The position numbers were made by a program, and so were the translations under genes. From positions 1 to 64,000 of IMG/VR virus record IMGVR_UViG_3300024331_000061: a stretch of DNA of 64,000 nucleotides. One strand, given 5' to 3'. Positions 49,286 through 55,147 of the stretch are shown piece after piece. This DNA comes from a virus. Taxonomy: Duplodnaviria; Caudoviricetes. The notes under the pieces were generated by a model. It had not been told where the DNA came from. It saw nothing but the letters and a program-made list of their open reading frames with translations, and did no database searches. Every line of letters starts with the position of its first letter. Position 1 is the stretch's first letter.

Positions 49286-49478
49286 CTGGATCGACTCCCA
49301 TCGCTACCAGCATGCGCCTGTGCAGGTGCCAGGCCAAGCGCACCCGCTCCGTGTGCTGCCTGTCCGCGTAGACCCGCAGCCGGTGCACCCGGTACATCAG
49401 GATCACCGTCATGACCAGGCTGGCTGCGATGCCCGCCGTGACGAGCTGCTGGAAGTGCTGGTGCCAGTAAACACTCAT
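48975..49478 (-). CDS. Membrane protein ORF whose 3' part overlaps MuF
   Basis: TGATG coupled to portal; N-terminal TM; last 311 nt overlap MuF in another frame. Confidence 0.4.
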   Translation of the reverse strand: MSVYWHQHFQQLVTAGIAASLVMTVILMYRVHRLRVYADRQHTERVRLAWHLHRRMLVAMGVDPDDYARSAAAAPAILAGYGDRYGHYRGPGHGAGLGGDTHGGPDEPTSVLPYVPGATRLDAGRPGYGDELSTGEDGGRWFRVPDDRTAELPAAGSVRPRSWPPRY

Positions 49479-51070
49479 CAGCCAGGTTTACCAGCTCGGG
49501 CGGCTGGTGTCGGCCCGGCCATCAAAGATCCCGCCCTGGGCGGCCTCGGCGGCCCGCTGACTGGCTGCGCGCCCGGAGGCGGCGGCGGGCGCAGCCCTGG
49601 TGCGCCACCCGGCCGCGCCCCCGCCTGCTGCACGATACCGTGAGCGGCCCCAGCCAGCCCCTGGAGCTGTCCTATGGACCCGGCGGTCTCCGGGGGCAGG
49701 CCCGGCGGCGGGTTCTGCGTCATGGCTTCCTGGCGCTGCGTGGCGGTGGCGATCAGCGCCGCGTGCACCTGGTCCACGTCGAGCTGGAGGATGCTGGCCA
49801 TGCGCTCGGTGATCAGGTCGAACACCTGGAGCGGAACGTGCAGGACGGGGGCGGCTGCCATGGTCTGGAACATGGTGAGCAGCGCGGCCTGCTGCTCGTC
49901 CTGGAGCGGGCCGAACTTGGCGCTGGGGAACGCGGCCTCGGGGCCGAAGTTGAGTAGCACCAGCGGCCGGATGATGCCGTGGGAGTAGGCTTCCGCCTGC
50001 TCTTTCGCCACGCCCTGCCTGCTCTTGAGGTAGAACGATGACTGGTCCTGGCTCAGCGAAAAGCTGCCCTTGCCGCCCATTGCGGAGCCGGTCAGGCCCA
50101 TGAACCCAGCCAGGACAGAGTGGGTCTGCCAGCCCTCCAGGAACGCCATGGCCTCAGCGAAGAACTTGCCGCCGTCCCCGCTGGACTCCAGCACGTCGAA
50201 CAGCTTCTTGTCCTCGGACGGGTGCACCATGCCGACCACGCCGCTGGACTTCAGCGAGGCGATCGAGTCGGCCTTGTCGTTGGCCTCGGCCTGGTCGTTG
50301 CCGTAGACCACGGTCCTGGGCAGCGCCTGGACCTCCAGGAAGTGATACCAGAGGTAGAGCAGCTTCATCTTGGTCTGGTAGCACCAGTAGGCCACCTCCA
50401 TCTCGGACGCGCCGATCAGGGGCTCGCGGTGCTTGCCGTGGGTGTAGATGAAGCTCCGCACGTGCGGGATGTCCACGTAGCCGGGCGTCTTGGACTTGCT
50501 GCTCAGGGCCATCTGGCCGCCGAACAGCCAGACCTGCTGGCGGAACCCGTGCTCGGCCGCCGTGCGCGAGTTATACCGGGCCTGGCAGGTGGACACCGGC
50601 CGGAACGCGATCTTGTCGTAGATGATCTTGCCGTCGTCCGGGCGGACCTTCCAGACCTTCTCGAAGAAGGCCCGGCGGTAGATCTGGCCGCTGGTGATCT
50701 GGCCGATCAGGTCCACGTTCTGCGTCTGCATGCCGCCGTTGTGGTCCGGGGTGAGCAGCACGCTGTTGACGAAATCGGCCTCGCCCTTGTCACCCTTGGC
50801 TGGGTTGATGCTGAAGTCGGCTTCGCGGATCGGCAGGGTAAGCACGCTCTCGACGGACTGGCAGATGCCGTCCCGCTGGAACATCACCTTCATGTCCCGG
50901 CTGGTCCACTCGCCGTAATCGAACACGTCGCCGCCGCCGTAGTAGGCGAACAGCCGCTGCCCGATGTCGAACTGGGTGCCGATCTCCTTGCCCAGCAGCT
51001 GGCTCTTGGTCGTCTTGATGTCAGGCAGCTTCAGGACCTGCGCCAGCTGACCATCCTGCTTCTGGGCCAT
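49478..51070 (-). CDS. Portal protein (DUF935/Mu gp29-like)
   Basis: AFFEKVW, AYWCYQTK...WYHFLEVQALP, IIRPLVLLNFG; between terL and MuF. Confidence 0.88.
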   Translation of the reverse strand: MAQKQDGQLAQVLKLPDIKTTKSQLLGKEIGTQFDIGQRLFAYYGGGDVFDYGEWTSRDMKVMFQRDGICQSVESVLTLPIREADFSINPAKGDKGEADFVNSVLLTPDHNGGMQTQNVDLIGQITSGQIYRRAFFEKVWKVRPDDGKIIYDKIAFRPVSTCQARYNSRTAAEHGFRQQVWLFGGQMALSSKSKTPGYVDIPHVRSFIYTHGKHREPLIGASEMEVAYWCYQTKMKLLYLWYHFLEVQALPRTVVYGNDQAEANDKADSIASLKSSGVVGMVHPSEDKKLFDVLESSGDGGKFFAEAMAFLEGWQTHSVLAGFMGLTGSAMGGKGSFSLSQDQSSFYLKSRQGVAKEQAEAYSHGIIRPLVLLNFGPEAAFPSAKFGPLQDEQQAALLTMFQTMAAAPVLHVPLQVFDLITERMASILQLDVDQVHAALIATATQRQEAMTQNPPPGLPPETAGSIGQLQGLAGAAHGIVQQAGARPGGAPGLRPPPPPGAQPVSGPPRPPRAGSLMAGPTPAARAGKPG

Positions 51071-51101: not shown

Positions 51102-51314
51102 TTACCGCCCGCCGCGCTGGCGGATGATATAAGCGATCAGCTGGTGAGCGCAGCCGATATCGCTGGCGAGCTTGCGCATGGTCCACTTCCGCCGGTCCTC
51201 GTTGCGCAGCTCCATGATGAGCCGGTCCCGCGAATCACGACGGCGGCCCGCCTCCTGTTCGAGACGAGCCGCCGCCTGATGGTGCTCACGGGCCTGCTGA
51301 GCCCGTATGTCCAC
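51102..51314 (-). CDS. Small HTH DNA-binding protein in the Ro60 cassette
   Basis: WTMRKLASDIGCAHQLIAYII helix-turn-helix; AAGGAGG RBS. Confidence 0.7.
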   Translation of the reverse strand: MDIRAQQAREHHQAAARLEQEAGRRRDSRDRLIMELRNEDRRKWTMRKLASDIGCAHQLIAYIIRQRGGR

Positions 51315-51329
51315 TGCTATCCGGCCTCC

Positions 51330-53006
51330 TTACAATGCGCCGCTGGCGAAGTCCGCCAGCAGCCTCGGCACGGCCTGGTCGAACCCGGATACGTCCAGCG
51401 TGCGCCAGTCGGCCGGGTCCGCGATGGTGAAGTTGGTGGGCGTGTAGGCCACGACAGCCAGCCGGGCGTCGATGCCCATCTTCTGCCGGTAGTCCTCCAG
51501 GGCCTGGTGCGGGTGGATGTCCCCGTACCAGGTCTCGTTGTCGGTGTGGATCTCGAACACGTCCACCGGGATGCGGTGCTTGGCCGCCTCCAGCATCGGG
51601 ACGGCGCAGTTCGTGCCGCCCATCTGCATCCCGAGCGCGACCTGCATCACGTCATCCAGGCGCATGCGCGGGCTGATGGGGTACTCGCTGATGCCCGAGT
51701 TCATCCCGTTGATCCGGGTCCACCGGCTCGGGTAGCTGCCGTGGGTGAACGCGGTGATCATGTGCTGCGGCTCGGTGGCCGCCGTCACCAGCGCGGCTGC
51801 ACTGGCCAGCTCGCGGCAGCTGATGGGCAGGCCGCCAGCCGGGTGGCCCATCGAGCCGCTGATGTCCACGGCCACGTTGCGCCGCTTCCCGGTCACCGGC
51901 ACCGCGCCGTAGCTCAGGTAGAACGACTCGTCCAGCGCATCGCAGACCTGCTGGCTGACCGGCCAGTGATCCGTGCTGCGGGCACCGTGCCCGCTGGCGT
52001 AGGTGCGCAGCGCGACCAGCTGGTTGACCGGGTGGATGCGGGCCTTCGCCAGCCCCTCGGCGTCGGTCAGCCGGGCGGTCACCAGGCGCGTGGTCTCGCT
52101 CATGGGGGTGAGCAGGCCGAGGCGGCTGATCTGGCCCAGGCGCTTGACCAGCGTGCCCAGCGGGATGCCGGTGTGGATCAGCGCGTCCCAGACCTCGGGG
52201 CTGGCCAGGGCCTCGGACGGCAGCATCTCGTGCGTCAGCTTGGACGTGCCGGGCGTGCCGTTGTAGTCCCCGATCAGCCGGGCGATCTGGTGGTTCGTGG
52301 TGCCGGGGTGCCAGACCTGCTGGTAGGCGTGCAGCAGCTGGGGCATGTCGCCCTTCAGCCACATCGACTCGCGGCGGCCCTTCAGGATGTAGTTGAACAG
52401 CATCACGTGGCTGCGCGGGATGGGCTGGCGGCCGAAGTGGCTCAGCCGCAGCAGGTCGCGCTGGCTCCAGTCATCGCGGCTCTTGTACTTCATGACCTGG
52501 TAGGCGACCTCATCGGCGTCCTTGTCGGTGTACCACTTGCCGACCGCCTTGGTCAGCGCGCGGCCCCAGCCACGGAACTGCTCGATGTAGCCCGCGAACG
52601 TGAGCAGGTGCGAGCCGGTGCGGCAGACCAGCGGCAGCCGGTCGAGCGCGGCCTGGCGGTAGTGCGTGTCGCCCAGGCTGGCTGCGGCGGCGAGGGAGAA
52701 GATCGCCGGGTTGACGCGCGGTGCGCGCCCGCCGATGCTGATGTCCTCGATTTCCTCGATCAGCCGGTAGTCGTTCGCCTTGGCCATGCGGATCACCCGC
52801 GCAGCTGCGGCCTTGGTCATCTTGGGCTCGGTCGCGTTGAACGTGCCGCCCTCGGTGCCCATGGTCAGGAAGCGCCGCAGCGCGGTGACCTCGGAAGTCT
52901 GGAAGGTGTAGCCCCCGGCGCTGTTGGGCACCTGGCGCGGGTCAGCGCGCCGGGACTGCGGAGTAGGGGACCTGCGGGTGTATATGTCGGAAAGGGAGTC
53001 AGGCAT
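51330..53006 (-). CDS. rsr: Ro60/TROVE-domain RNA-binding protein with vWA domain
   Basis: QVPNSAGGYTF, RRFLTMGTEGGTF, WGRALTKAV, KYKSRDDWSQRDLLRLSH, VAVDISGSM, TDNETW, ADP-x-D-x-x-TLDVSGFD. Confidence 0.95.
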   Translation of the reverse strand: MPDSLSDIYTRRSPTPQSRRADPRQVPNSAGGYTFQTSEVTALRRFLTMGTEGGTFNATEPKMTKAAAARVIRMAKANDYRLIEEIEDISIGGRAPRVNPAIFSLAAAASLGDTHYRQAALDRLPLVCRTGSHLLTFAGYIEQFRGWGRALTKAVGKWYTDKDADEVAYQVMKYKSRDDWSQRDLLRLSHFGRQPIPRSHVMLFNYILKGRRESMWLKGDMPQLLHAYQQVWHPGTTNHQIARLIGDYNGTPGTSKLTHEMLPSEALASPEVWDALIHTGIPLGTLVKRLGQISRLGLLTPMSETTRLVTARLTDAEGLAKARIHPVNQLVALRTYASGHGARSTDHWPVSQQVCDALDESFYLSYGAVPVTGKRRNVAVDISGSMGHPAGGLPISCRELASAAALVTAATEPQHMITAFTHGSYPSRWTRINGMNSGISEYPISPRMRLDDVMQVALGMQMGGTNCAVPMLEAAKHRIPVDVFEIHTDNETWYGDIHPHQALEDYRQKMGIDARLAVVAYTPTNFTIADPADWRTLDVSGFDQAVPRLLADFASGAL

Positions 53007-53032
53007 CGTGATCGTTTCCTTTCATGAAGAAA

Positions 53033-53105
53033 GCCCCGCGAGCATAAGCATTCCGGCCGGGGATACTGTCCGACACGGTAACCGGCCGAATCCGGCTCGC
53101 GGGGC
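53033..53105 (-). ncRNA. Y-RNA-like unit 3 (minimal, 73 nt)
   Basis: 11-bp terminal stem; GAGCCGGATT...GGTTACC and TTATGCTC motifs shared with units 1 and 2. Confidence 0.7.
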
Positions 53106-53186
53106 ATTCAGTTCTTCTGGGTTGAGCAGCTGCCGTGTCCCCCGGTTTGGGGGGGTGAACCAAGGGACACATGCAGCCACAAAAAG

Positions 53187-53282
53187 CGCGGCGAGCATAA
53201 ATGAAAGCCCGGTAAGAAGTGCCCTTGCGGACACCTTCCCGTTTGGAAGGCGGTAACCGGACCTAATCCGGCTCGCCACGCG
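53187..53282 (-). ncRNA. Y-RNA-like unit 2 (96 nt)
   Basis: Terminal stem CGCGTGGCGAGC/GCTCGCCGCG, same conserved motifs, internal GCAA tetraloop hairpin, followed by TTTTT. Confidence 0.72.
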
Positions 53283-53299
53283 GATGATCTTGAGTTATG

Positions 53300-53449
53300 G
53301 GCGATGAGCATAAATCTCAGCCTGGGGTTTTAGCGCTCTAGCCCTGAGCTACCGTCCCTGGCCCTTTCGGGTTAGCGGGACGGGCGGGGACTCCAACCCC
53401 GCATCCTCTCCGTTAGCAGCGGTAACCAGACCAATTCCGGCTCATCACC
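53300..53449 (-). ncRNA. yrlA: YrlA-like Y RNA unit 1 (150 nt) containing a circularly permuted tRNA-like domain
   Basis: Stem GGTGATGAGC/GCTCATCGCC; T arm, 7-bp acceptor CCGTCCC/GGGACGG capped by CCC-GAAA-GGG, D arm GCTC-AGGGCTA-GAGC; upstream of Ro60. Confidence 0.85.
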
Positions 53450-53457
53450 TTGTCCAT

Positions 53458-53486
53458 AAGCTAGACGACTTTCGCCGGTCTGTCAA
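53458..53486 (-). promoter_or_regulatory. SigA-type promoter for the Y RNA-Ro60 cassette
   Basis: TTGACA-17 nt-TAGCTT; predicted start site a few nt before the first Y RNA stem. Confidence 0.8.
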
Positions 53487-53491
53487 ATCCA

Positions 53492-55147
53492 TTACCGCCA
53501 TGCCTTCACGTTGGGCCGCTCGCGGTTCTCCTGAGCCTGGCTGAGCGTGTCATCCTGCGGCGCGAACCCGTCTTCGGTCCAGTCGCCCCCGGCCCTGGAG
53601 TAGGCACCGCCGTGCGCGCTGGCCAGGCGGCGGCGCATGCTGCTCACCCTGCCGCCGGGCTCTTCCTCGATGTCCGGGCCGTACTCGGCCAGGTCCTGCA
53701 TGCCAGCCCACTCCCGCTTGGTGGCGGGCACCAGCGGGCCGAAGGTAGCGTTCAGCCAGAAGTGGCAGCCCCACACCAGCGAGTCCAGCCTGTCTGGTGA
53801 GCGCTCCCCCTGGGCTCCGGTGAAGCTGCACATCTGGTCCTCAAGGTCTACGAAACGCTCGGTGTCGGTATGCCAGATCCTGTCTCCGCTGTCCGGGTCG
53901 GTGATCTGGTATGTGACGGACTTGTTGCAGTGCCGGACTATGCCGCGCTCATACAGGGCCGATACCGGCTCAGCACGGGTCCGCTTAGCCTGGCTGGCGT
54001 GTACCAGCTCGTAGGGGACACGGCCGGTCTCCTTCATGACCTGCTCGAATGTGGACTTCAGCCAGCCCCCGCCGTGGTTCTTCTCGATCACCAGGGTGGC
54101 GTGCAGCTCCTGGGCCTTCTTGATCACCCGCTTGGCGAACATCACCGGGGACTCCTGGCCGCCCCAGCTCTCTATGACGTAGACGTGCGGGTCATCGACC
54201 TGCCCCCTGGCGACCACGGTGTACGCCTGCTCGTCGCTGTCCTCAGCCCCGTCACTGGGGTCCACGCCGATGTAGACCCTGGTCAGGAACGTCGGGCCGC
54301 CTTCCTCGCCCACGCCGGGGCACTGGATGGAATCGACCAGCTCGCGGGTCCACAGGGCGTTCGCCACGTCGTCCAGCAGCTCGCCCTCCAGCTCCTGGCG
54401 TTCGAGCCGGGTGCCCTTGGCCGCGCCGACGACAGCCCGGTAGAACGCCTCGGACAGGTTGGCGATGTTGTCGATGGTGCGCAGCCGCCGGGTGATCACG
54501 CCGCCGTGCTCGGGCTCGTTGCGGATCAGTGACCGGACCAGCTTGCGCGCCGGTCGGCTGACCTTGGGCGTGCCGGTGGCGATGATCTTGGACACGCCCA
54601 TCCGCACCGCGTACCGCAGCGATTCGCCCCAGGCCACTTCCCACTTCTGCCAGAGCCCGATTTCGTCGCACCAGGCCGCCTTCAGGTTGCGGCCCTGGAT
54701 GCGCAGGCCGCCCTCGTCGGCGCTGTCCACGTAGATCACCACGCCGTTGTGCATGACCACCTGGCCGTAGGTGCGCCAGGCGCTGCGGACCAGCTTGGAG
54801 CGGTGGTCCTTGACCTCGGCCATGGAGGTCCCCAGCGCCCTCAGGATGCCGCTCTCGCCCTCCACGCACTTGGTCCAGGCGTCGGCGTAGGTCGGCGCGA
54901 TGATGCCGTACTCGCCCTCTCCGTCGGTATCCATGAGCACGATGTCCGCCAGCCCCTGGGCACCGGCCCTGGTCTTGCCGCTGCCCCGGCCGCCCTGGAG
55001 GTAGAACACCCGCCACGGGTCCTCGATAGGCGGCAGCAGCTGCTCGGGCCTGCTGGTCGCGCGCCACCGCACGCGCGGGTCCTCGCTGGGTTTGGACAGC
55101 TCATCTGACCAGCTCGCCAGGACGATCTCGTCAGCGGTGGCGGTGAT
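53492..55147 (-). CDS. terL: Terminase large subunit (ORF track starts at 55072; open frame extends to 55150)
   Basis: GGRGSGKT Walker A, AWCDEIG Walker B, YIGVDPS and PDRLDSL nuclease motifs. Confidence 0.93.
   Translation of the reverse strand: MTATADEIVLASWSDELSKPSEDPRVRWRATSRPEQLLPPIEDPWRVFYLQGGRGSGKTRAGAQGLADIVLMDTDGEGEYGIIAPTYADAWTKCVEGESGILRALGTSMAEVKDHRSKLVRSAWRTYGQVVMHNGVVIYVDSADEGGLRIQGRNLKAAWCDEIGLWQKWEVAWGESLRYAVRMGVSKIIATGTPKVSRPARKLVRSLIRNEPEHGGVITRRLRTIDNIANLSEAFYRAVVGAAKGTRLERQELEGELLDDVANALWTRELVDSIQCPGVGEEGGPTFLTRVYIGVDPSDGAEDSDEQAYTVVARGQVDDPHVYVIESWGGQESPVMFAKRVIKKAQELHATLVIEKNHGGGWLKSTFEQVMKETGRVPYELVHASQAKRTRAEPVSALYERGIVRHCNKSVTYQITDPDSGDRIWHTDTERFVDLEDQMCSFTGAQGERSPDRLDSLVWGCHFWLNATFGPLVPATKREWAGMQDLAEYGPDIEEEPGGRVSSMRRRLASAHGGAYSRAGGDWTEDGFAPQDDTLSQAQENRERPNVKAWR

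What the first reader, a model, noticed from the sequence alone, without database searches (positions are those of the whole stretch)
51102..53486. Self-contained Ro60 plus triple Y RNA plus HTH cassette inserted between terL and portal
A consensus promoter (TTGACA-17-TAGCTT) is followed by three tandem RNAs of 150, 96 and 73 nt. Each is closed by a stem with the same GAGCCGGAWT...GGTTACCG 5' strand and TTATGCTC 3' strand, but carries a different internal module. A full Ro60 gene and an HTH gene follow. Ro60 with YrlA-type RNA is established in bacteria and some phages, where the Y RNA tethers Ro60 to effector proteins. Three different scaffolds on one phage transcript, in a normally conserved terL-portal junction, suggests a multi-adaptor RNP for RNA-level counter-defence or host RNA remodelling (inference).
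Basis: partly seen in the sequence, partly recalled or inferred. Interest (0 to 1): 0.88.

Follow-up and report, generated by a model that had tools for sequence, protein, structure and literature searches.

The report
Phage Ro60 gene with Y-RNA array
An uncultured soil phage carries, wedged between two packaging genes, a Ro60 RNA-binding protein gene with three small partner RNAs and a small helper protein; the module is real, but phages are already known to carry this kind.

Summary
On the minus strand, right after the terL stop codon, lie a promoter-like site, three tandem structured RNAs (150, 94 and 71 nt), a full-length Ro60 gene (TROVE + vWA domains, MIDAS motif kept), a 70-aa helix-turn-helix-like gene, and then the portal gene.

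Covariance models built only from actinophage Y RNAs, without this phage, find exactly these three units in 64 kb: 76.8, 55.6 and 29.6 bits. Their stems show many compensatory changes.

In the nine closest relatives terL is followed at once by portal, so the 2.4-kb block is an insertion. One other phage has the same block at the same site, with four RNAs.

The kind is known. Y RNAs next to Ro60 were reported in 254 bacteria and 22 phages (PMC4201824), and a phage Ro60 with two Y RNAs has been studied biochemically (PMC12135203). Arrays of 4-7 units turned up readily in other phage and bacterial loci here, and this scan has noted such arrays on other DNA. Three units are therefore not unusual.

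Counter-defence remains an untested guess. The least described part is the small protein, which accompanies Ro60 throughout this clade.

The parts
53492..55072 (-). terL (large terminase), upstream flank of the insertion
   Evidence: Pfam Terminase_6N and Terminase_6C. There are 62 relatives in IMG/VR at 55-78% identity.
53458..53486 (-). Promoter-like site, TTGACA-17-TAGCTT. It would start transcription at about the first base of U1.
   Evidence: Read directly from the sequence. The -35 box and its position are conserved in L126/L150. The consensus scan did not call it.
53299..53448 (-). U1: a YrlA-type Y RNA. It has the Ro60-binding stem plus a permuted tRNA-like module: T arm, 7-bp acceptor-like stem with an extra hairpin, UA, then D arm.
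   Evidence: Independent model R3 scores 76.8 bits, E 7e-15. Rfam YrlA matches the tRNA-like core only, at 22.1 bits, below the gathering score. On alignment A1, 34 pairs are 91% paired and 20 show compensatory changes. ARAGORN miscalls part of it as tRNA-Ser.
53186..53279 (-). U2: a Y RNA with a two-hairpin module, one hairpin capped by a GCAA tetraloop. Its closing stem is followed by UUUUU.
   Evidence: Scores 33.8 bits with R1, 22.5 with R2 and 29.6 with R3. The fold has z -4.2. The GNRA hairpin is conserved in L126 unit C and in L072/L128 unit 1.
53125..53177 (-). 22-bp hairpin between U2 and U3. It is not a Y-RNA unit and its role is unknown; a processing site is one possibility.
   Evidence: -35.8 kcal/mol, z -4.5. 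No Y-RNA model finds it. It is absent from L126.
53033..53103 (-). U3: a minimal Y RNA (Ro60-binding stem plus a small GGAC loop module), ending 27 nt before the Ro60 start codon. Its closing stem is followed by CUUUCUUC.
   Evidence: Independent model R2 scores 55.6 bits, E 1.6e-10. On alignment A2, 23 pairs are 91% paired and 10 show compensatory changes.
51330..53006 (-). Ro60/Rsr ortholog, 558 aa
   Evidence: Pfam TROVE and vWA_Ro60; PHROG 850. It aligns over its full length to X. laevis Ro60 1YVP (1e-92) and D. radiodurans Rsr 2NVO (2e-89), with the MIDAS residues kept.
51102..51314 (-). 70-aa partner protein: a long N-terminal helix followed by a C-terminal helix-turn-helix. The N-terminus MDxRAQQAREHH is invariant.
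   Evidence: AF2 model with pLDDT 83. Foldseek's top hits are HTH domains, all with E>0.2. Pfam HTH_31 and MRP-L20 match only below threshold. Its only relatives in the phage database are the genes right after Ro-like genes.
49478..51070 (-). Portal protein, downstream flank of the insertion
   Evidence: Pfam Portal_Mu. It directly follows terL in the nearest relatives.

Best explanation
This is a phage-borne Ro60 ribonucleoprotein module of the actinophage type, carried as a 2.4-kb accessory insertion between terL and portal of an apparently lytic 84-kb soil phage.

Proposed mechanism:
1. A promoter directly after the terL stop codon starts transcription at the first base of the first Y RNA. 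This is inferred.
2. The precursor carries three Y RNAs and then the Ro60 and small-protein genes. This order is shown.
3. The RNAs are released by processing and partial termination. Inter-unit spacers carry a recurrent AACU..A motif, and U2 and U3 end in GC-rich stems followed by U-runs. The release step is inferred, by analogy with M. smegmatis YrlA/YrlB, which are cut from one precursor.
4. Each RNA binds the outer face of the Ro60 ring through the shared stem (GAGCCGGA..GGUUACC paired with ..UAUGCUC). This is inferred from homology to an RNA shown to be bound by M. smegmatis Rsr.
5. Each RNA presents a different module: a permuted tRNA mimic (U1), a GNRA-capped hairpin pair (U2) or a minimal loop (U3). 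The differences are shown.
6. As in bacteria and in Thermus phage phiLo, these modules most likely tether Ro60 to host RNA enzymes such as PNPase, or gate it, and so redirect host RNA decay or quality control during infection. This is inferred.
7. The 70-aa HTH-like protein is a dedicated partner. It most likely autoregulates the cassette, or else is a subunit of the particle. This is inferred.
For: - Protein: Ro60 domains and the MIDAS motif are present.
- Detection: the three units are found by models built only from other phages.
- Structure: covariation supports the closing stem, the inner helix and the T and acceptor-like arms. Both alignments are 91% paired, 0 of 500 shuffles reach the observed covariation, and slid controls give 38-46% pairing.
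- Homology to a bound RNA: U1 aligns with mycobacterial-type units whose sequence matches the published M. smegmatis YrlA probe sequences.
- Insertion: terL and portal abut in the nine nearest relatives. The same cassette, with four units, sits at the same site in L126/L150.
- Partner gene: the Ro60-HTH gene pair is conserved in Sparky, Farewell, BearBQ, Cashline, prophiGD43A-5, L072 and L128.
- Lifestyle and partners: the record, estimated 100% complete, has no integrase or resolvase. It has no RtcB or RNA ligase either, so any enzymatic partner must come from the host.
- Literature: PMC4201824 and PMC12135203.
Against: - There is no expression, processing or binding evidence for this phage.
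- Rfam YrlA scores only 22 bits against a gathering score of 69, and covers only the tRNA-like core. Mycobacterial-type units also fall below that threshold.
- The -10 box is weak, and the generic promoter and terminator scans found nothing.
- The host is unknown.
- The T loop reads UUGGA instead of UUCGA in both phages, so the tRNA mimicry may be imperfect.
- The partner enzymes are a guess.
Confidence: 0.75

Rival explanations
1. U2 and U3 are not free-standing Y RNAs. They are cis-acting leader elements of the Ro60 mRNA: Ro60 binds Y-like stems in its own 5' leader, and the stem-plus-U-run structures act as attenuators, giving feedback control of Ro60 synthesis. Only U1 would be a true trans-acting Y RNA.
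For: U3 ends 27 nt before the Ro60 start codon. The minimal class sits directly before Ro60 in the window, L072, L128, Sparky, BearBQ and prophiGD43A-5. The closing stems of U2 and U3, and of L126 units B and C, are followed by U-runs like intrinsic terminators.
Against: In L126 the minimal unit is second of four, not next to Ro60. In M. smegmatis the RNA lying between YrlA and rsr (YrlB) accumulates as a discrete Rsr-bound RNA (PMC4201824). Distinct module classes are conserved across distant phages, which fits trans-acting function.
Confidence: 0.15
2. The cassette serves the host cell rather than the phage. It would be a moron expressed from a prophage that improves stress survival, as Rsr does after UV or starvation in Deinococcus, or that blocks superinfecting phages.
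For: It has its own promoter and terminator-like ends. In the temperate actinophages BearBQ, Cashline and prophiGD43A-5 the homologous cassette lies beside the integrase, the repressor or a toxin-antitoxin pair, where lysogenically expressed genes usually sit.
Against: The record, estimated 100% complete, has no tyrosine or serine recombinase. Here the cassette sits inside the late packaging and head operon, in the same orientation.
Confidence: 0.07
3. The block is a passively carried remnant of recombination at a hot spot and has no current function.
For: About a quarter of the relatives carry unrelated inserts at the same junction: an Lsr2-like gene, an HNH/NUMOD3 endonuclease and others. 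Between the window and L150, portal is 90% identical but terL only 66%, which shows recombination there.
Against: All parts are intact. Ro60 has diverged to 62% between the two phages while keeping its full length and motifs. The RNA stems keep pairing through compensatory changes. Several metagenomic Ro60 proteins at 82-91% identity exist in each sub-clade. All of this indicates purifying selection.
Confidence: 0.03

Closest known systems
Actinobacterial and mycobacteriophage Rsr (Ro60) with YrlA/YrlB Y RNAs (Chen et al. 2014, PMC4201824; Rfam RF02553)
   Same: - Ro60 has TROVE and vWA domains.
- The RNAs lie just upstream on the same strand, within one transcription unit.
- The 5' strand carries ..CGGUUACC.., the local form of the GNCGAA motif. 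The 3' strand A(U/C)A(U/C)GC(C/U)C appears here as UUAUGCUC.
- One RNA has T and D arms and a 7-bp acceptor-like stem, as in M. smegmatis YrlA.
- The other RNAs are small hairpin types.
   Different: - There are three units, where two are described in print.
- The inner part of the Ro60-binding stem is more fully paired here, by A-U and G-U pairs.
- The T loop reads UUGGA.
- The acceptor-like stem carries an extra hairpin.
- The Rfam score is far below threshold.
- The cassette sits between terL and portal of a phage unrelated to the cultured ones (terL at most 34% identical).
Thermus phage phiLo Ro60 with Yrl1/Yrl2 (PMC12135203)
   Same: A phage-encoded Ro60 with several Y-like RNAs upstream and no phage PNPase, so a host partner is presumed. 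Counter-defence was proposed for phiLo as well.
   Different: The phiLo Y RNAs carry the CGAA motif, and no tRNA-like domain is reported in the passages I read. No small HTH partner is described. phiLo Ro60 did not appear among the sequence matches to solved structures, so it is distant.
Ro-like cassettes of the cultured actinophages Sparky, Farewell, BearBQ, Cashline and prophiGD43A-5 (GenBank records)
   Same: Ro60 is 46-49% identical. The same ~70-aa partner gene lies directly downstream. The same classes of Y-RNA unit lie upstream: tRNA-like first, minimal last.
   Different: In those phages the cassette lies near the integrase or immunity region or among tRNA genes, not in the packaging operon. 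Their 3' strand is ACAYGCCC. Their Y RNAs are not annotated, or are partly miscalled as tRNA.

Membership tests
Ro60 / Rsr (TROVE family) | TROVE (HEAT-repeat ring) domain above the Pfam cut-off | tested here: met
   PF05731 scores 114 bits against a cut-off of 23.
Ro60 / Rsr (TROVE family) | C-terminal vWA domain with the MIDAS motif (DxSxS, T, D) | tested here: met
   PF25045 scores 174 bits. DISGSM, GGTNCA and HTDNET align with the MIDAS positions of 1YVP and 2NVO.
Ro60 / Rsr (TROVE family) | Full-length similarity to Ro60 proteins of known structure | tested here: met
   1YVP at E 1e-92 over residues 17-553, and 2NVO at E 2e-89.
YrlA-type Y RNA (Rfam RF02553) | Reaches the Rfam gathering score | tested here: not met
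   U1 scores 22.1 bits against 69, over model positions 24-84 only. The mycobacterial-type units L072 and L128 also fail, at 48.5 and 46.3 bits, so the threshold is strict for this clade.
YrlA-type Y RNA (Rfam RF02553) | Encoded within 4 kb of Ro60 on the same strand (criterion of Chen et al. 2014) | tested here: met
   All three units lie 27-440 nt upstream of Ro60 on the same strand.
YrlA-type Y RNA (Rfam RF02553) | The 5' and 3' ends pair into a stem that carries the conserved 5'-strand motif | tested here: met
   The closing stem and the inner helix are supported by compensatory changes. In helix 1, 6 of 7 pairs covary; in helix 2, 5 of 9 do. GGUUACC aligns with the Rfam CGAAUG region.
YrlA-type Y RNA (Rfam RF02553) | tRNA-like module with T arm, D arm and acceptor-like stem | tested here: met
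   This applies to U1 only. The T arm, the 7-bp stem, UA and the D arm GCUC..GAGC all align with actinophage YrlA units. The T loop is UUGGA rather than UUCGA.
YrlA-type Y RNA (Rfam RF02553) | Recognised by a model of undoubted clade members that excludes the candidate | tested here: met
   With R3, built from 9 actinophage units, U1 scores 76.8 bits at E 7e-15.
YrlA-type Y RNA (Rfam RF02553) | Bound and stabilised by Ro60 in vivo | not testable with these tools
   This needs RIP, Northern or EMSA experiments.
Non-tRNA Y RNAs (YrlB / Yrn2-like small hairpin Y RNAs) | Same Ro60-binding module as the neighbouring YrlA, with a short hairpin or loop as the distal part | tested here: met
   U3 scores 55.6 bits with R2. 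U2 scores 22.5 with R2 and 29.6 with R3. For the minimal class, 10 of 23 pairs covary.
Helix-turn-helix DNA-binding proteins | Match to an HTH family above the curated threshold | tested here: not met
   The homologs L126 and L072 score 15.7 and 17.3 bits on HTH_31, against a cut-off of 27. MRP-L20 scores 20.5-27.4 against 30.4. No PHROG matches.
Helix-turn-helix DNA-binding proteins | Tri-helical fold with a helix-turn-helix | tested here: inconclusive
   The AF2 model has helices 3-39, 46-53 and 57-68 at pLDDT 83, from only 4 sequences. The best Foldseek hits are Lrp/AsnC and Mos1 HTH domains and a mitoribosomal protein, all at E 0.25 or worse.
Phage moron (accessory insertion) | Absent from close relatives at an otherwise tight gene junction | tested here: met
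   Nine relatives with 77-78% identical terL have a gap of 13-18 nt between the terL and portal matches.
Phage moron (accessory insertion) | Own promoter and terminator | tested here: inconclusive
   The -35 box is consensus and is conserved in two phages, but the -10 box is weak. U-runs follow the unit stems. The scanning tool called none of these.

The most novel reading that the evidence does not exclude
The invariant 70-aa protein encoded right after Ro60 is not a transcription factor. It would be a third, undescribed subunit of the Ro60-Y RNA particle in this clade of phage and actinobacterial-type loci. Its strictly conserved acidic and basic N-terminus (MDxRAQQAREHH) would dock on Ro60, for example at the vWA MIDAS site, whose ligand has never been identified. 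Its HTH would contact RNA, as the HTH-containing mitoribosomal protein it weakly resembles does. The array of 3-7 Y RNAs would then supply interchangeable adaptors for one protein core.
Probability: 0.2. Interest if true: 0.6.

Novelty: new member of a known kind. Interest (0 to 1): 0.35.

Why it matters
The window adds a clean example of a Ro60/Y-RNA module behaving as a mobile cassette. It drops into a precise site between two packaging genes of a lytic soil phage lineage unrelated to the cultured actinophages that carry it.

Comparison with other loci gives three usable leads:
- Y-RNA arrays are built from a few recurring module classes on one constant Ro60-binding handle.
- A small HTH-like protein travels with Ro60 in this clade and has not been studied.
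- Some 'tRNA' annotations next to Ro-like genes in phage records are probably Y-RNA tRNA mimics.

All three can be tested in cultured relatives such as Sparky and BearBQ. None changes the established picture of Ro60 biology.

Tried and rejected
I therefore could not fetch the contigs of the closest Ro60 proteins (P0002-P0007, 82-91% identity) to see their context.
- The protein-pattern scan of viral contigs with the window's Ro60 found nothing.
- The loose 5'-motif scan of viral contigs gave 83 loci, of which only 3 were real.
- The specific minimal-unit pattern found only L072 and L128 in viral contigs. In metagenomes it found only L150, which is the same phage as L126. In genomes it found nothing.
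- A 5'+3' motif pattern in genomes gave 86 loci, of which one (Rhodomicrobium) had Ro60. There the 3' motif match was accidental.
- Rfam alone would have dismissed the RNAs. The generic promoter and terminator scans were blind to them.
- I considered that the T-loop change C56>G is compensated by a D-loop G19>C swap. The short D loop AGGGCUA can be numbered either way, so I dropped this.
- I considered that hairpin 53125-53177 is a decayed fourth unit. No model supports that.
- I looked in the phage record for an integrase, resolvase, RtcB, RNA ligase, WhiB and Lsr2. All were absent, so the host stays uncertain. An actinobacterial host is hinted at only by an Lsr2-like gene in a relative and by the affinities of the cassette.
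- RNAalifold on the four-sequence two-hairpin class proposed a local hairpin, GCCGG/CCGGU, in place of the long-range inner helix. Both strands are invariant, so covariation cannot decide between them.
Full report
**What is there.** The window is part of an 83.8-kb IMG/VR virus record estimated to be complete. All features lie on the minus strand.
- terL is at 53492-55072 and the portal gene at 49478-51070 (Terminase_6N/6C and Portal_Mu).
- Between them lies a 2.4-kb block.
- The block starts with TTGACA-17-TAGCTT, 5 nt after the terL stop.
- A 485-nt non-coding stretch follows.
- Then comes a 558-aa ORF with TROVE and vWA_Ro60 domains.
- After a 15-nt gap comes a 70-aa ORF. The portal start follows 31 nt later.

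**The RNAs.** The non-coding stretch holds three units, each closed by its own GC-rich stem (inverted repeats I1, I3 and I4). Each carries GAGCCGGAWU..GGUUACCG on the 5' side and UUAUGCUC on the 3' side.
- Rfam's YrlA model matches only the tRNA-like core of U1, at 22 bits against a gathering score of 69.
- That threshold is strict for this clade. Units from mycobacterial-type prophage contigs match the published M. smegmatis YrlA probe sequences, yet reach only 46-48 bits.
- The Rfam alignment shows that GUCGGUUACC occupies the place of the GNCGAA(N)G motif that Chen et al. link to Rsr binding.

**Independent test.** I collected units from upstream of Ro-like genes in:
- two IMG/VR prophage contigs (L072, L128);
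- Mycobacterium phages Sparky and prophiGD43A-5;
- Gordonia phages BearBQ and Cashline.

Two covariance models were built without the window or its sister phage, then run on the whole window.
- R3 (nine tRNA-like units) finds U1 at 76.8 bits (E 7e-15), U3 at 36.5 and U2 at 29.6.
- R2 (five minimal units) finds U3 at 55.6 bits (E 1.6e-10) and U2 at 22.5.
- Nothing else in 64 kb reaches E<1. There are exactly three units.

**Structure.**
- The tRNA-like class (A1, 11 sequences) has 34 pairs that are 91% paired. Twenty of them show changes on both sides. No shuffle out of 500 reaches the observed covariation, and partners slid by 1-3 columns give 38-46% pairing.
- The minimal class (A2, 7 sequences) gives 23 pairs, 91% paired, 10 compensatory.
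- These alignments mix paralogous units from one locus with units from different phages. The counts are therefore not independent events, but the signal is strong in the closing stem, the inner helix and the T and acceptor-like arms.

**The three modules.**
- U1 reads as a permuted tRNA: T arm, 7-bp acceptor-like stem (here extended by a small hairpin), UA, then D arm. This is the layout of M. smegmatis YrlA, which RNase P cleaves (PMC4201824).
- U2 carries two hairpins, one with a GCAA tetraloop. That hairpin recurs in L126 unit C and in L072/L128 unit 1.
- U3 is a minimal unit whose loop (GUGUCGGACAGUAUCCCC) is identical in the sister phage and similar in Mycobacterium-type loci.

**The insertion.** Sixty-two IMG/VR contigs encode terL at 55-78% identity.
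- In the nine closest, and in most of the others, the portal gene starts within a few to about 25 nt of the terL stop. None of the 62 has Ro60.
- One further phage (L126, which is the same as L150) has the same layout at the same site: terL, promoter-like TTGACA, four units (tRNA-like, minimal, GNRA hairpin, and a longer one), Ro60 (62% identical), an extra 83-aa ORF, the small protein (55%) and portal.
- Its portal is 90% identical to the window's but its terL only 66%. The region has therefore been recombined.
- The Ro60 proteins of the two phages head two sister groups of metagenomic proteins, at 82-88% and 84-91% identity within groups and about 60% between them.
- About a quarter of the relatives carry other inserts at this junction. 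These include an Lsr2-like DNA-binding gene and an HNH/NUMOD3 endonuclease, and one relative has an intein inside terL.
- The junction is thus a recurrent landing site rather than a strictly conserved one.

**How unusual is a triple array?** It is not unusual.
- Unit counts elsewhere: Sparky, BearBQ and Cashline have two units; L072 and L128 four; prophiGD43A-5 six; viral contigs L242, L243 and L244 about seven, six and four to five. A Rhodomicrobium genome has five units before its Ro60.
- The literature describes two Y RNAs per species, processed from one precursor in M. smegmatis, and YrlA-like RNAs in 22 phages (PMC4201824).
- Thermus phage phiLo Ro60 binds two upstream Y-like RNAs and host PNPase in vitro (PMC12135203).
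- Ro-like genes occur in 354 records of the phage collection, nearly all from actinobacterial hosts.
- Earlier notes of this scan report Ro60 with Y-RNA arrays in other phages.

**The proteins.**
- Ro60 aligns end to end with X. laevis Ro60 and D. radiodurans Rsr and keeps the MIDAS residues.
- The 70-aa protein has no family match above threshold.
- With a four-sequence alignment it is predicted (pLDDT 83) as one long helix followed by a helix-turn-helix.
- Its structural neighbours are HTH domains and an HTH-bearing mitoribosomal protein, all with weak scores.
- Its only relatives in 50,697 phage records are the genes immediately downstream of Ro-like genes in Sparky, Farewell, BearBQ and Cashline. 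prophiGD43A-5 gp53 is also a homolog (hhalign 99.7%).
- It is absent after the more distant Ro60 of L242.
- It is therefore a dedicated companion of this Ro60 clade. Whether it binds DNA, RNA or Ro60 is open.

**Expression signals.**
- The -35 box is consensus, and it recurs at the same position in the sister phage.
- The -10 box is weak by E. coli standards.
- The spacing puts the start site at the first base of U1's stem.
- U2 and U3, and units B and C of the sister phage, end in GC-rich stems followed by U-runs. This could define 3' ends or attenuate read-through into Ro60. The terminator scan cannot see such long 'loops'.
- Inter-unit spacers carry AACU..A in 11 of 26 upstream 30-mers, against 1.3% of random 30-mers. 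This was a post-hoc motif and some rows are near-duplicates. It may mark a processing site.
- A 22-bp hairpin (53125-53177; -35.8 kcal/mol, z -4.5) between U2 and U3 has no counterpart in the sister phage and is unexplained.

**Function.**
- The record has no integrase or resolvase, so action during lytic growth is more likely than lysogenic conversion.
- It has no RtcB or RNA ligase, so any enzymatic partner must be the host's.
- By analogy with bacterial Rsr-Y RNA-PNPase and with the phiLo complex, the best guess is that the particle retargets or restrains host RNA decay and quality control.
- The proposed link to defence systems is untested.

**Verdict.** This is a real, well-formed Ro60/Y-RNA cassette, a new member of a known kind. 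Its value is mainly as a clear case of cassette mobility, and as a pointer to the unstudied small partner protein.

Noticed in passing
window 53125-53177 (-): A near-perfect 22-bp hairpin lies between U2 and U3 (-35.8 kcal/mol, z -4.5). It is not recognised by any Y-RNA model and is absent from the sister phage. It may be an RNase III-type processing site or a relic.
   Followed up: partly
L153 (prophiGD43A-5, MW584167.1) locus 1747-1825; window 53377-53455: The GenBank 'tRNA-Thr(tgt)' of prophiGD43A-5 overlaps the 5' half of a YrlA-like unit (L153:1753-1886). ARAGORN likewise calls 'tRNA-Ser(gct)' across the start of U1 in the window. Such tRNA calls next to Ro-like genes are probably Y-RNA tRNA mimics. 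That prophage has six unannotated units.
   Followed up: partly
L026:6750-7382, L043:4665-6374, L059:4148-5296: Relatives of this phage carry other cargo at or near the terL-portal junction: an Lsr2-like DNA-binding protein (a hint of an actinobacterial host), an HNH/NUMOD3/T5orf172 homing-type endonuclease, and an intein within terL.
   Followed up: partly
L150 (= L126) versus the window: The region is mosaic. Portal is 90% identical, while terL is 66% and Ro60 62% identical, so there is a recombination break near the cassette.
   Followed up: no
L126:1949-2200 (-): The sister phage has an extra 83-aa ORF between Ro60 and the small HTH-like gene. The window has none.
   Followed up: no
Spacers before window U2 (about 53283-53298) and U3 (about 53106-53124); also L072, L128, L126, L152-L154: The motif AACU(N)0-2(A/C)A recurs in the single-stranded spacers just upstream of internal units: 11 of 26 upstream 30-mers against 1.3% background. 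The motif was defined post hoc. It may be a conserved processing site.
   Followed up: partly
L162 (Rhodomicrobium sp. MAG) 2180-2900; L242 2550-3480; L243 2720-3480: Arrays of five to seven Y-RNA-like units on the same handle (GCCGGA..GGUUAYC paired with ..AYAYGNCC) lie upstream of Ro60 in an alphaproteobacterial genome and in other viral contigs.
   Followed up: partly
window 53396-53402 and 53343-53349 (-): The T loop of U1 is UUGGAGU (C56 replaced by G) and the D loop is a short AGGGCUA, in both this phage and L126. Whether a swapped 19:56 tertiary pair compensates could not be decided.
   Followed up: partly
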